From the NCBI RefSeq assembly GCF_013167455.1, contig NZ_CP038328.1: a DNA stretch of 64,000 nt; one strand, given 5' to 3'. How positions within the stretch are numbered: position 1 is the first letter of the stretch; each line of letters begins with the position of its first letter. The position numbers are program-made. Shown here piece by piece: positions 38,301-41,300 of the stretch. The stretch comes from Escherichia coli O157:H7. GTDB taxonomy: Bacteria > Pseudomonadota > Gammaproteobacteria > Enterobacterales > Enterobacteriaceae.

Positions 38301-41300
38301 GTGCATGTTCTCGGATATGCCGCGAGAGCACTACAAAGAAGAGCTGGCACAGCACCAGGAAGGCGTGCTGGATATCATTCAGCGAGCGGGCATCAACGTG
38401 CTGTGGAATGACAACGATGGCGGCTGTAAAGGTGCCTGCGACCGCGTGCCTCACCAGAACGTCACCGCGCTGAATCTGCCTGATCAGTGCATCAACGGCG
38501 AATGCTATGACGAAGTGCTGTTCCACGGGCTGGAAGAGTACATCAATAACCTGCAGGGTGATGGCGTGATTGTCTTACACACCATCGGCAGCCACGGTCC
38601 GACCTATTACAACCGCTATCCGCCGCAGTTCAGGAAATTTACCCCAACCTGCGACACCAATGAGATCCAGACCTGTACCAAAGAGCAACTGGTGAACACT
38701 TACGACAACACGCTGGTTTACGTCGACTATATTGTTGATAAAGCGATTAATCTGCTGAAAGAACATCAGGATAAATTTACCACCAGCCTGGTTTATCTTT
38801 CTGACCACGGTGAATCGTTAGGTGAAAATGGCATCTATCTGCACGGTCTGCCTTATGCCATCGCCCCGGATAGCCAAAAACAGGTGCCGATGCTGCTGTG
38901 GCTGTCGGAGGATTATCAAAAACGGTATCAGGTTGACCAGAACTGCCTGCAAAAACAGGCGCAAACGCAACACTATTCACAAGACAATTTATTCTCCACG
39001 CTATTGGGATTAACTGGCGTTGAGACGAAGTATTACCAGGCTGCGGATGATATTCTGCAAACTTGCAGGAGAGTGAGTGAATGAAAATTCTGATTGTTGA
39101 AGACGATACGCTGTTATTGCAGGGACTGATTCTGGCGGCGCAAACCGAAGGCTACGCGTGCGATGGCGTGACAACCGCGCGGATGGCGGAACAAAGCCTT
39201 GAGGCAGGTCATTACAGCCTGGTGGTACTGGATTTAGGGTTACCCGACGAAGATGGACTGCATTTTCTCGCCCGTATCCGGCAGAAAAAATATACCCTGC
39301 CGGTACTGATCCTCACCGCTCGCGATACGCTGACCGACAAAATCGCCGGGCTGGATGTCGGTGCCGACGACTATCTGGTGAAGCCTTTTGCGCTGGAAGA
39401 GTTACATGCCCGTATCCGCGCCCTGCTACGACGCCATAATAATCAGGGCGAAAGTGAGCTGATTGTTGGCAATCTGACGCTGAACATGGGTCGCCGTCAG
39501 GTATGGATGGGCGGTGAAGAGTTGATTCTGACGCCCAAAGAATATGCTCTGCTGTCACGGTTAATGCTCAAAGCAGGCAGTCCGGTGCATCGGGAAATTC
39601 TCTACAACGACATCTATAACTGGGACAATGAACCCTCGACCAACACCCTGGAAGTGCATATCCACAATCTGCGCGACAAAGTGGGCAAAGCCCGTATCCG
39701 CACCGTGCGCGGCTTTGGCTATATGCTTGTCGCGAATGAGGAAAACTAATTGAATCTGATGCGTTTTCTGCGCCGACCAATATCGCTGCGCCAACGGCTG
39801 ATATTGACCATCGGGGCCATTTTGTTGGTGTTTGAGCTGATCAGCGTCTTCTGGCTATGGCATGAAAGTACCGAGCAGATTCAGCTGTTTGAGCAGGCGC
39901 TACGCGACAATCGCAACAACGATCGCCACATCATGCGTGAGATCCGCGAGGCGGTCGCCAGCCTGATTGTCCCCGGCGTCTTTATGGTCAGCCTGACGCT
40001 ATTTATCTGCTATCAGGCGGTACGCCGCATCACCCGCCCGCTGGCGGAGCTGCAAAAAGAGCTGGAAGCGCGCACCGCCGACAACTTAACGCCCATTGCC
40101 ATTCACAGCGCCACCCTCGAAATCGAAGCGGTGGTTTCGGCGTTGAACGATCTGGTCAGTCGCCTGACCAGCACGCTGGATAACGAAAGGTTATTTACCG
40201 CTGACGTCGCGCACGAACTGCGAACGCCACTGGCGGGGGTGCGTTTGCATCTGGAACTGCTGGCGAAAACGCATCACATTGATGTAGCACCGTTAGTGGC
40301 ACGGCTTGATCAGATGATGGAGAGCGTCTCCCAGCTGCTGCAACTGGCGCGTGCCGGACAGTCATTTTCTTCCGGTAATTATCAACATGTAAAACTGCTG
40401 GAAGATGTCATTCTCCCCTCGTATGACGAACTCAGTACCATGCTCGACCAGCGACAGCAAACCCTGCTATTGCCAGAGAGCGCCGCCGACATCACCGTTC
40501 AGGGTGATGCAACCCTGCTGCGGATGTTATTGCGAAACCTGGTAGAAAACGCCCATCGTTACAGCCCGCAAGGCAGCAACATTATGATTAAGCTGCAAGA
40601 AGATGGCGGAGCGGTCATGGCCGTTGAAGATGAAGGACCGGGTATTGATGAGAGTAAATGCGGGGAGTTGAGTAAAGCGTTTGTACGTATGGACAGCCGT
40701 TATGGCGGGATTGGTCTGGGGTTAAGTATTGTCAGCCGCATTACACAGTTGCATCACGGGCAGTTTTTCCTGCAAAACCGGCAAGAGACTTCCGGCACGC
40801 GGGCCTGGGTACGGCTGAAGAAAGATCAGAACGTGGCAAACCAGATATAAAGAAAGCTGCTGACCACCAGCACGCTGAACACGGTAGTTAAACTTTCATA
40901 AACACGGTTTTTCATTGCACTCTCCTCCGTTAACCTGGAGGAGAGTATGCGCGTCAGAGATTAAGTGAACCTTAAGAGTTCAATTGGCCTGATAAGACAG
41001 CGTTACATCAGGCCATCCGTTTCAGCTTATTCATCAATTCGCGGATGTTGCTGCACCAGGCGGGTACGTTTCGCCTGCAAATCGGCAATCTCGTGGTCAA
41101 TATCATCGATTTTCTGCTCGATATTATCGTAATGCTCGACGAGAATTTCCTTCGCTTCCTGTATATCTGACGCCGCCGGTGTTGCACCTTTCAACGGACG
41201 ATTTGCCGTCTCTTTCATGGTTACGCCGGTGATTAAACCAACCACCGCCACTACCATCAGGTAATAGGCTGGCATCATCAGATTCTGCGAGCTTTCGACC

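What the first reader, a model, noticed from the sequence alone, without database searches (positions are those of the whole stretch)
40826..40976. 29-codon pmrR ORF antisense to the end of basS, preceded by a PmrA-box-like repeat
The last 25 nt of basS (plus strand) overlap a minus-strand ORF encoding MKNRVYESLTTVFSVLVVSSFLYIWFATF, a single-helix peptide. About 45 nt upstream on the minus strand is CTTAAG-gttca-CTTAAT, matching the YTTAAK-N5-YTTAAK PmrA box. So the BasSR operon appears to be followed by a convergent, BasR-activated small membrane peptide gene whose transcript is antisense to the basS 3' end.
Basis: partly seen in the sequence, partly recalled or inferred. Interest (0 to 1): 0.4.

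Follow-up and report, generated by a model that had tools for sequence, protein, structure and literature searches.

The report
Known pmrR small-protein gene of E. coli

Summary
A 29-codon ATG ORF lies at 40826-40915 (-) and overlaps the last 25 nt of basS/pmrB, which ends at 40850. A perfect YTTAAK-N5-YTTAAK repeat, CTTAAGGTTCACTTAAT, lies at 40976-40960, 44 nt before the ATG.

The window is 100% identical to E. coli O157:H7, where RefSeq annotates this ORF as pmrR, "LpxT activity modulator PmrR". The peptide matches the NCBIfam equivalog NF033224 at 72.7 bits against a cut-off of 30.

In 11 distinct loci from Escherichia, Salmonella, Citrobacter and Intestinirhabdus, several features hold:
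- The ORF is always 29 codons and lies between pmrB and proP, convergent with pmrB.
- pN/pS is 0.26.
- The box half-sites are nearly invariant and sit 43-44 nt from the ATG.

The overlap with pmrB ranges from -44 to +66 nt between species, so antisense pairing is not a conserved feature.

One point was not found described in the papers searched. A conserved 9-10 bp inverted repeat pairs the pmrR Shine-Dalgarno sequence with the stretch between the predicted -10 and the start site. Its role is untested.

Verdict: already known, low interest.

The parts
40826..40915 (-). pmrR coding sequence, 29 codons plus TGA. Product is MKNRVYESLTTVFSVLVVSSFLYIWFATF, with a polar N-terminus (residues 1-8) and a hydrophobic helix (residues 9-29).
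   Evidence: ORF list. RefSeq annotation pmrR WP_000797656.1 on 100% identical DNA. NCBIfam NF033224 at 72.7 bits against cut-off 30. pN/pS 0.26 across 12 loci. Kyte-Doolittle mean +1.86 for residues 9-29 against -1.43 for residues 1-8.
40920..40928 (-). Shine-Dalgarno-type GGAGGAGAG, 4 nt before the ATG. It is also the 3' arm of a conserved inverted repeat.
   Evidence: Sequence. Invariant in 11 distinct loci. Capitals in the Rfam STnc630 consensus.
40937..40946 (-). 5' arm of the inverted repeat, ACTCTCCTCC (anti-SD). It overlaps the end of the -10-like hexamer and fills the space up to the predicted transcription start.
   Evidence: Fold energy -22.7 kcal/mol, z = -3.85. The core stem is 100% paired on the pmrR-sense strand in 11 loci, and all 5 changed cells are C to U giving G.U pairs. 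The same changes give C.A mismatches on the pmrB-sense strand.
40944..40949 (-). Predicted -10 hexamer CATACT (CAnACT in all species), 10 nt after the PmrA box. It predicts a start near A40936. Inferred, not mapped here.
   Evidence: Fixed position and conservation in 11 loci. The generic sigma-70 scan found no -35/-10 pair, as expected for an activator-dependent promoter in which the box replaces the -35.
40960..40976 (-). PmrA/BasR box, the direct repeat CTTAAG-N5-CTTAAT.
   Evidence: 2 matches in the window against 0.07 expected. Half-sites nearly invariant (one T-to-G change in the last base of the second) and 43-44 nt from the ATG in 11 loci. Deleting this box in E. coli W3110 derivatives gives the pmrR-null phenotype (PMC8129183).
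40986..41014 (-). REP-like hairpin GGCCTGAT...ATCAGGCC just after the proP stop codon. Probably the proP 3' hairpin. Absent from the Salmonella, Citrobacter and Intestinirhabdus loci examined.
   Evidence: Sequence. Upstream sequences of the other genera lack it.
39750..40850 (+). basS/pmrB sensor kinase gene. Its last 25 nt overlap pmrR on the opposite strand.
39081..39749 (+). basR/pmrA response regulator gene, the activator expected to bind both boxes.
37441..39084 (+). eptA (pmrC), first gene of the eptA-basRS operon.
   Evidence: converting locus to window coordinates by adding 36499.
37378..37394 (+). Second PmrA box, CTTAAGGTTGGCTTAAT, 46 nt upstream of the eptA ATG. It serves as an internal positive control for the motif.
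41027..42529 (-). proP, the gene upstream of pmrR on the same strand.

Best explanation
This is pmrR, a 29-residue inner-membrane peptide gene of the BasS-BasR (PmrB-PmrA) regulon in an E. coli O157:H7-type chromosome.

Proposed mechanism:
1. Phosphorylated BasR binds the direct repeat CTTAAG-N5-CTTAAT, which takes the place of a -35 element.
2. BasR activates transcription from a weak -10 (CATACT) 10 nt downstream of the box.
3. The short-leader mRNA carries a strong Shine-Dalgarno sequence and is translated into a single-pass membrane peptide.
4. The peptide binds and inhibits LpxT, the undecaprenyl-pyrophosphate:lipid A 1-phosphotransferase.
5. Position 1 of lipid A is then left free for phosphoethanolamine addition by EptA. 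This lowers surface negative charge and raises polymyxin resistance, at the cost of deoxycholate resistance.

Basis of each part:
- Shown here: the ORF, the box and their non-random placement; family membership; purifying selection; conserved synteny.
- Taken from the literature: translation, membrane location, box-dependent function and lpxT dependence in E. coli; LpxT binding in Salmonella.
- Inferred: the -10 hexamer, the start site near 40936, and direct BasR binding at this particular box.
For: - The DNA is 100% identical to E. coli O157:H7. A match is present in 5412 of 5426 complete E. coli genomes, and every listed record annotates pmrR there.
- NCBIfam equivalog PmrR scores 72.7 bits over the full length, against a cut-off of 30. 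Pfam PF28106 PmrR is recorded on the orthologous 29-aa genes.
- The box pattern occurs twice in 64 kb against 0.07 expected, both times 44-46 nt before the ATG of a PmrA-regulated gene.
- In 11 distinct loci from 4 genera, the ORF is always 29 codons, the box lies 43-44 nt from the ATG, a CAnACT hexamer lies 10 nt after the box, and pN/pS is 0.26.
- PMC8129183: deleting only the PmrA box of the E. coli pmrR promoter makes a PmrA-constitutive strain polymyxin-sensitive and deoxycholate-resistant. Deleting lpxT reverses the polymyxin effect, and ectopic pmrR complements.
- PMC11429745: Ribo-RET reads at the PmrR start site rise 5-fold under low Mg2+. PmrR-6xHis fractionates with membranes. The deletion phenotype is complemented only when the start codon is intact.
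- PMC4651636: a review stating that PmrR binds LpxT directly.
Against: - No BasR binding or start-site mapping could be done here, and the original Salmonella paper (Kato et al. 2012) was not readable.
- In PMC11429745 a reporter carrying the region just upstream of pmrR did not respond significantly to low Mg2+. The growth phenotypes of pmrR deletion and overexpression were independent of lpxT, so PmrR may have further partners in E. coli.
- PMC8004244 reports effects of this region on pmrB-mediated colistin resistance. Its authors say these effects do not fit the Salmonella feedback model.
- The O157 peptide ends in F, where K-12 and all the other species examined have Y or W. The effect of this difference is unknown.
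Confidence: 0.95

Rival explanations
1. The locus is a non-coding small RNA (Rfam STnc630), and the 29-codon frame is incidental.
For: Rfam RF02052 'Enterobacterial sRNA STnc630' matches 40819-40984 (-) over its full length, at 178.5 bits against a gathering score of 55.
Against: - The model covers the PmrA box itself, the Shine-Dalgarno sequence and the whole ORF, so it describes the pmrB-proP intergenic region, not a defined RNA.
- The frame is kept at exactly 29 codons in 11 loci, with pN/pS 0.26.
- Translation, membrane localisation and start-codon-dependent complementation are published for E. coli (PMC11429745).
- No paper in the searchable library mentions STnc630.
Confidence: 0.03
2. 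The main role of the pmrR transcript is cis-antisense control of basS/pmrB mRNA through the 3' overlap, with the peptide secondary.
For: - In E. coli the ORF overlaps basS by 25 nt, and no terminator-like site follows the pmrR stop. The transcript should therefore run antisense into basS.
- PMC8004244 found that the length of DNA downstream of pmrB strongly changes pmrB mRNA level and colistin resistance.
Against: - The overlap is not conserved. It is -44 nt in Intestinirhabdus, -7 and +7 in Salmonella, +4 to +7 in Citrobacter, +25 in E. coli and +66 in E. fergusonii.
- The E. coli phenotypes of the box deletion are reversed by deleting lpxT and complemented by pmrR in trans (PMC8129183), which points to the peptide.
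Confidence: 0.07
3. A chance short ORF next to a chance AT-rich repeat.
For: Dozens of ORFs of 20-30 codons occur in this 7-kb stretch alone.
Against: - The box pattern is expected 0.07 times per window.
- Spacing and length are conserved in four genera.
- The peptide matches a curated family model far above its cut-off.
Confidence: 0.01

Closest known systems
PmrR of Salmonella enterica (Kato, Chen, Latifi and Groisman, Mol Cell 2012; cited through PMC11429745 and PMC8129183)
   Same: 29 residues. Polar N-terminus followed by one hydrophobic helix. Located between pmrB and proP, convergent with pmrB. A PmrA box lies 44 nt before the ATG, with the same SD hairpin (loci L004 and L013).
   Different: Several residues differ: the Salmonella sequences are MKSYIYKSLTTLCSVLIVSSFIYVWVTTY and MKTRIYESLTTVFSLLIVSSFLYVWVSSY. 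In the Salmonella loci the ORF ends 7 nt short of pmrB or overlaps it by 7 nt, against 25 nt here. E. coli has an extra REP-like hairpin between proP and the box.
PmrR of E. coli K-12 (WP_000797657.1; studied in PMC8129183 and PMC11429745)
   Same: The 231 nt from the proP stop to beyond the pmrR stop are identical except at 2 positions. The box, hexamer, hairpin and 28 of 29 residues are the same.
   Different: The last residue is F in this O157-type sequence and Y in K-12. The same SNP (window 40830) changes the overlapping PmrB codon from Tyr to Asn.
Other small membrane peptides that modulate membrane enzymes or sensors in the PhoPQ/PmrAB network (MgrB, MgtS)
   Same: All are single-pass peptides under 50 aa, induced by a two-component system, that act by binding a membrane protein (PMC11429745).
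   Different: The target differs (LpxT, rather than PhoQ or MgtA). There is no sequence relationship. pmrR is unusual in being packed convergently against the sensor gene of its own regulator.
Rfam RF02052 STnc630
   Same: It covers the same DNA (40819-40984, minus strand).
   Different: The family is filed as an sRNA, but the DNA contains a promoter element and a translated ORF. It is best read as the pmrR locus, not as a separate non-coding RNA.

Membership tests
PmrR (NCBIfam NF033224 equivalog; Pfam PF28106) | Full-length match to the curated 29-position family model, above its cut-off | tested here: met
   72.7 bits against cut-off 30, residues 1-29 on profile positions 1-29. The orthologous genes carry PF28106.
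PmrR (NCBIfam NF033224 equivalog; Pfam PF28106) | Genomic position between pmrB and proP, convergent with pmrB | tested here: met
   Window and L001. The same arrangement holds in all ten other distinct loci that carry the gene.
PmrR (NCBIfam NF033224 equivalog; Pfam PF28106) | Single hydrophobic helix; membrane peptide | tested here: met
   Kyte-Doolittle mean is +1.86 over residues 9-29 and -1.43 over residues 1-8. Membrane fractionation of E. coli PmrR-6xHis is published (PMC11429745).
PmrR (NCBIfam NF033224 equivalog; Pfam PF28106) | Coding sequence under purifying selection, i.e. really translated | tested here: met
   Always 29 codons; mean pS 0.553, mean pN 0.146, ratio 0.26. Ribo-RET start-site signal in E. 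coli (PMC11429745).
PmrR (NCBIfam NF033224 equivalog; Pfam PF28106) | Binds and inhibits LpxT | not testable with these tools
   Genetic evidence in E. coli (PMC8129183). Direct binding is reported for Salmonella, cited in PMC4651636.
PmrA/BasR-activated promoter | Direct repeat YTTAAK-N5-YTTAAK (consensus attributed to Aguirre et al. 2000, cited in PMC10927774) | tested here: met
   An exact match at 40976-40960 (-). The window has 2 matches against 0.07 expected, the other at eptA. Conserved in 11 loci.
PmrA/BasR-activated promoter | Box placed in lieu of a -35 element, about 10 nt upstream of a -10 hexamer (typical of OmpR/PhoB-family class II activation; from general knowledge) | tested here: inconclusive
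   A conserved CAnACT hexamer lies exactly 10 nt after the box in all loci. No start site was mapped here, and the generic promoter scan found nothing.
PmrA/BasR-activated promoter | BasR binding and BasR-dependent transcription | not testable with these tools
   The box deletion abolishes pmrR function in a PmrA-constitutive E. coli strain (PMC8129183).
Rfam RF02052 STnc630 (sRNA) | Covariance-model score above the gathering threshold | tested here: met
   178.5 bits against 55, model positions 1-166.
Rfam RF02052 STnc630 (sRNA) | Acts as a non-coding RNA | tested here: not met
   The matched stretch contains a promoter box and a conserved, translated 29-codon ORF (PMC11429745).
cis-antisense regulator of the convergent gene | Conserved overlap with the target mRNA | tested here: not met
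   The ORF overlap with pmrB ranges from -44 to +66 nt among 11 loci. The true 3' ends of the transcripts are unknown.

The most novel reading that the evidence does not exclude
The conserved inverted repeat ACTCTCCTCC / GGAGGAGAGT may be a promoter-selective translational gate.

The predicted BasR-dependent start, near A40936, lies immediately after the 5' arm. Transcripts from the pmrR promoter would therefore lack the anti-SD arm and carry a free Shine-Dalgarno sequence. Read-through transcripts from the osmotically induced proP gene upstream contain both arms. They would fold into a roughly -19 kcal/mol hairpin that hides the Shine-Dalgarno sequence, keeping PmrR synthesis strictly under BasR control. 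The hairpin might also serve as the stable 3' end of proP mRNA, since most genera have no other hairpin between proP and pmrR.

[quoted passage not shown] Its +86, +103 and +126 end points map to 40936, 40953 and 40976. These would correspond to pmrR with no promoter, with the -10 only, and with the complete PmrA box.
Probability: 0.25. Interest if true: 0.35.

Novelty: already known. Interest (0 to 1): 0.08.

Why it matters
PmrR links the BasSR/PmrAB signalling system to the charge of lipid A. Through that link it affects polymyxin/colistin resistance and bile-salt tolerance in enteric bacteria. This role is already established, and the gene is routinely annotated by NCBI's pipeline, so the finding adds nothing new about the gene.

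The exercise does have some value:
- It confirms that a reader working from sequence alone can recognise a 29-codon gene and its regulatory box.
- It flags that the Rfam 'sRNA' STnc630 is this protein-coding locus.
- It points to an undescribed, conserved anti-Shine-Dalgarno hairpin, which could explain how pmrR is insulated from proP transcription.

Tried and rejected
- **Peptide homology search.** The peptide is also too short for the look-up of encoding contigs and the search of protein representatives. I anchored on PmrB instead and fetched loci by exact PmrB sequence.
- **Genome-collection scan.** A degenerate DNA pattern from the pmrR ORF was scanned against genome contigs and returned only one locus, Citrobacter braakii. 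The same pattern does match the window, so that scan was clearly not exhaustive.
- **Primary Salmonella papers.** Kato et al. 2012 (PMID 22921935, PMC3465083) and Hong et al. 2018 (PMC5967240) are not held. The mapped Salmonella start site and footprint could not be checked.
- **Literature on the hairpin and the sRNA.** Searches for STnc630, for pmrR with 'PmrA box' and 'Escherichia coli', and for pmrR with hairpin or start-site terms found nothing relevant.
- **Generic sigma-70 scan.** It found no promoter upstream of pmrR. I rejected this as evidence against a promoter, because activator-dependent promoters lack a -35.
- **Terminator-like site inside the ORF.** The only terminator-like hit lies inside the pmrR ORF (40872-40858). 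The scan expects 0.8 such hits by chance, so I treated it as probably chance.
- **Covariation test of the hairpin.** There were no compensatory double changes on either strand, so RNA structure is not proven. The only asymmetry is mild. Five changed cells give G.U pairs on the pmrR-sense strand and C.A mismatches on the other. The outermost pair shows the opposite pattern in 2 loci.
- **More distant PmrB without pmrR.** A PmrB relative at 68% identity (L008) has no pmrR downstream; a NicO-family gene follows instead. pmrR is therefore not universal next to pmrB. I did not map the limits of its distribution.
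Full report
**Observation.** The minus strand of the window carries an ATG-initiated ORF at 40915 down to 40826. It has 29 codons plus TGA and encodes MKNRVYESLTTVFSVLVVSSFLYIWFATF. The plus-strand ORF 39750-40850 is the sensor kinase gene basS/pmrB, so the two genes converge and share exactly 25 nt. On the minus strand, CTTAAG-gttca-CTTAAT occupies 40976-40960, and 44 nt separate its last base from the ATG. The exact IUPAC pattern YTTAAKNNNNNYTTAAK occurs twice in the 64-kb window, against 0.07 expected from dinucleotide-preserving shuffles. The second copy (37378-37394, +) lies 46 nt upstream of the eptA start codon. 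eptA is the textbook PmrA/BasR target, so the motif finds exactly the two expected promoters at the same distance from the start codon.

**Identity.** The 801 nt around the feature are 100% identical to E. coli O157:H7 chromosomes, and a match is found in 5412 of 5426 complete E. coli genomes. RefSeq annotates the ORF as 'pmrR: LpxT activity modulator PmrR' (WP_000797656.1). It is flanked by eptA-basR-pmrB on one side and proP on the other. The peptide matches the NCBIfam equivalog model NF033224 'PmrR' over all 29 positions at 72.7 bits, against a curated cut-off of 30. The orthologous 29-aa genes in other genera carry the precomputed Pfam family PF28106 PmrR. Membership in the PmrR family is therefore established by test, not by resemblance.

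**Comparative evidence.** The peptide is too short for the protein-search tools, so I anchored on PmrB. I fetched the DNA downstream of pmrB from:
- a divergent E. coli;
- E. fergusonii;
- two Salmonella enterica;
- Citrobacter rodentium, C. sedlakii, C. amalonaticus and C. braakii;
- Intestinirhabdus alba;
- two metagenome contigs, one of which (L010) duplicates the I. alba promoter and peptide.

In all 11 distinct loci that carry the gene, the following hold:
- pmrR is exactly 29 codons.
- It lies between pmrB and proP, convergent with pmrB.
- It is preceded by a box whose half-sites are nearly invariant (CTTAAG ... CTTAAT, once CTTAAG), 43-44 nt from the ATG.
- A conserved CAnACT hexamer lies 10 nt after the box.

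The 10-nt spacer and the hairpin loop vary freely, which shows that the sequences are diverged enough for conservation to mean something. Pairwise mean pS is 0.553 and mean pN is 0.146, a ratio of 0.26, so the peptide is under purifying selection. Residues 9-29 are strongly hydrophobic (Kyte-Doolittle mean +1.86) and residues 1-8 are polar (-1.43), which fits a single transmembrane helix. A more distant PmrB (68% identity, L008) has no pmrR downstream, so the gene is not universal next to pmrB.

**Published experiments.**
- *PMC8129183.* This paper describes the overlapping arrangement and the PmrA box. The authors deleted only the box, to spare pmrB. A PmrA-constitutive strain then lost polymyxin resistance and regained deoxycholate resistance. 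Deleting lpxT restored polymyxin resistance, and ectopic pmrR complemented.
- *PMC11429745.* This paper reports a 5-fold rise in Ribo-RET reads at the PmrR start codon under low Mg2+. PmrR-6xHis fractionated with membranes. A low-Mg2+ growth defect of the pmrR deletion was complemented only when the start codon was intact. The same paper notes that the growth phenotypes did not depend on lpxT. It also notes that a reporter carrying the immediate upstream region did not respond significantly to low Mg2+. Some aspects of E. coli PmrR therefore remain open.
- *Other sources.* Direct binding of PmrR to LpxT is cited from the Salmonella work (PMC4651636). The YTTAAK direct-repeat consensus is attributed to Aguirre et al. 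2000 (PMC10927774). I could not read Kato et al. 2012 itself.

**Mechanism.** The steps are as follows, each marked by its basis.
1. BasR~P binds the direct repeat. Inferred for this locus; genetic support comes from PMC8129183.
2. The box replaces a -35 element and sits 10 nt upstream of a weak -10 (CATACT, 40949-40944). This predicts a start near A40936 and a leader of about 21 nt. Inferred from conserved geometry; the generic sigma-70 scan finds nothing, as expected.
3. The strong Shine-Dalgarno sequence GGAGGAGAG (40928-40920) drives translation. Translation itself is shown in the literature.
4. The peptide inserts in the inner membrane and inhibits LpxT. This leaves lipid A position 1 to EptA and shifts the cell from deoxycholate resistance to polymyxin resistance. 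From the literature.

**Antisense aspect.** The ORF overlap with pmrB is 25 nt here, but it varies widely elsewhere:

| Locus | Overlap with pmrB (nt) |
|---|---|
| Intestinirhabdus alba | -44 |
| Salmonella (two loci) | -7 and +7 |
| Citrobacter (four species) | +4 to +7 |
| E. coli | +25 |
| E. fergusonii (PmrB C-terminally extended) | +66 |

No terminator-like site follows the pmrR stop, so the RNA probably does run antisense into pmrB. The overlap itself is not conserved, however, and the E. coli phenotypes depend on the peptide and on lpxT. I therefore rate antisense regulation of basS as a minor possibility, not the function.

**Rfam.** The window-wide scan shows that RF02052 'Enterobacterial sRNA STnc630' matches 40819-40984 (-) over its full length, at 178.5 bits against a gathering score of 55. 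The family consensus contains the PmrA box, the Shine-Dalgarno hairpin and the whole ORF. The 'sRNA' family is therefore the pmrR locus, promoter included, and does not represent a separate non-coding RNA. No paper in the searchable library mentions STnc630.

**An undescribed detail.** ACTCTCCTCC (40946-40937) and GGAGGAGAGT (40928-40919) form a 9-10 bp inverted repeat. As RNA it folds at -22.7 kcal/mol in the 61-nt context, with z = -3.85.
- *Conservation.* Both arms are conserved in all 11 loci, while the loop and the spacer drift.
- *Pair changes on the two strands.* The arm opposite the Shine-Dalgarno sequence carries five changed cells. All are C to U, which keeps G.U pairs on the pmrR-sense strand and gives 100% pairing of the nine core pairs. 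On the pmrB-sense strand the same changes give C.A mismatches.
- *Fold energies.* On the pmrR-sense strand the hairpin energy stays at -18.9 to -20.8 kcal/mol in every species. On the other strand it drops to -8.7 in C. rodentium.
- *Limits.* There are no compensatory double changes, and the outermost pair shows the opposite asymmetry in two loci. The evidence for an RNA-level role is therefore only suggestive.

The predicted BasR-dependent start lies just after the 5' arm. A possible reading follows from this. Only read-through transcripts from proP would contain both arms and hide the Shine-Dalgarno sequence. That would insulate PmrR synthesis from proP transcription. I give this reading a probability of 0.25.

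**A related point.** PMC8004244 reported the effect of DNA downstream of pmrB(BL21) on colistin resistance. Constructs with +86 bp gave no resistance, +103 bp gave partial resistance and +126 bp gave full resistance. BAP1, which I take to be a BL21(DE3) derivative (my own knowledge), has the same 176-bp pmrB-proP spacer as the window. On that basis the three end points map to 40936, 40953 and 40976:
- +86 ends just short of the -10 hexamer and the 5' arm.
- +103 ends just past the -10 hexamer.
- +126 ends exactly at the distal end of the PmrA box.

The series may therefore track the completeness of the pmrR promoter. It may equally track the completeness of the hairpin at the pmrB 3' end. The host in that study still had a chromosomal pmrR, so this remains unresolved.

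**Verdict.** The feature is the known gene pmrR with its known PmrA-dependent promoter. Novelty: already known. Interest: low (0.08). The only residual novelty is the conserved anti-Shine-Dalgarno hairpin, together with the mislabelled Rfam family.

Noticed in passing
window 40819-40984 (-): Rfam RF02052 'Enterobacterial sRNA STnc630' matches over its full length (178.5 bits, gathering score 55). The match spans the PmrA box, the SD hairpin and the whole pmrR ORF. The family filed as an sRNA is really the pmrR gene plus its promoter.
   Followed up: partly
window 40919-40946 (-): A conserved inverted repeat, ACTCTCCTCC / GGAGGAGAGT, pairs the pmrR Shine-Dalgarno sequence with the stretch between the predicted -10 and the start site. 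Both arms are conserved in 11 loci. All 5 changed cells are C to U, which gives G.U pairs on the pmrR-sense strand only. There are no compensatory changes. No description of it was found in the papers searched.
   Followed up: partly
window 40936, 40953, 40976: [quoted passage not shown] They fall just short of the -10, just past the -10, and exactly at the far end of the PmrA box. This matches the paper's none, partial and full colistin resistance.
   Followed up: partly
window 40830: A single SNP relative to K-12 lies in the 25-nt overlap and is non-synonymous in both genes. PmrR ends in F in this O157-type sequence, against Y in K-12 and Y or W in the other species. The overlapping PmrB codon is Asn instead of Tyr.
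   Followed up: partly
window 37370-37394 (+): The eptA promoter has the canonical box CTTAAGGTTGGCTTAAT. A third CTTAAG half-site lies just 2 nt upstream of it, at 37370-37375.
   Followed up: no
window 40986-41014 (-): A REP-like hairpin, GGCCTGAT...ATCAGGCC, lies between the proP stop codon and the PmrA box. It is absent from the Salmonella, Citrobacter and Intestinirhabdus loci examined, where the box follows proP by as little as about 8 nt (Salmonella L004, I. alba).
   Followed up: partly
L005 (E. fergusonii) 2578-2667 (-): PmrB is 380 aa here, extended at the C-terminus, and overlaps pmrR by 66 nt. The gene caller for that record did not call pmrR, although the intact 29-codon ORF, box and hairpin are all present.
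   Followed up: partly
window 40858-40872 (-): A terminator-like hairpin, TGCTGGTGGTCAGCA followed by a T-rich tail, lies inside the pmrR ORF. It also appears as a stem in the Rfam consensus structure. The scan expects 0.8 such hits by chance in this stretch.
   Followed up: no
window 46651-46727 (+), 46751-46827 (+), 49304-49384 (-): Three Rfam naRNA4 (CssrE, nucleoid-associated ncRNA) matches at 97.9, 105.1 and 63 bits. They probably represent REP-type repeat elements.
   Followed up: no
window 10404-10479 (+): A single tRNA-Phe (GAA) gene is present.
   Followed up: no
L008 (metagenome contig; PmrB 68% identical): A more distant pmrB is followed by a same-strand NicO-family gene, with no pmrR or proP. 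pmrR is therefore not universal next to pmrB.
   Followed up: no
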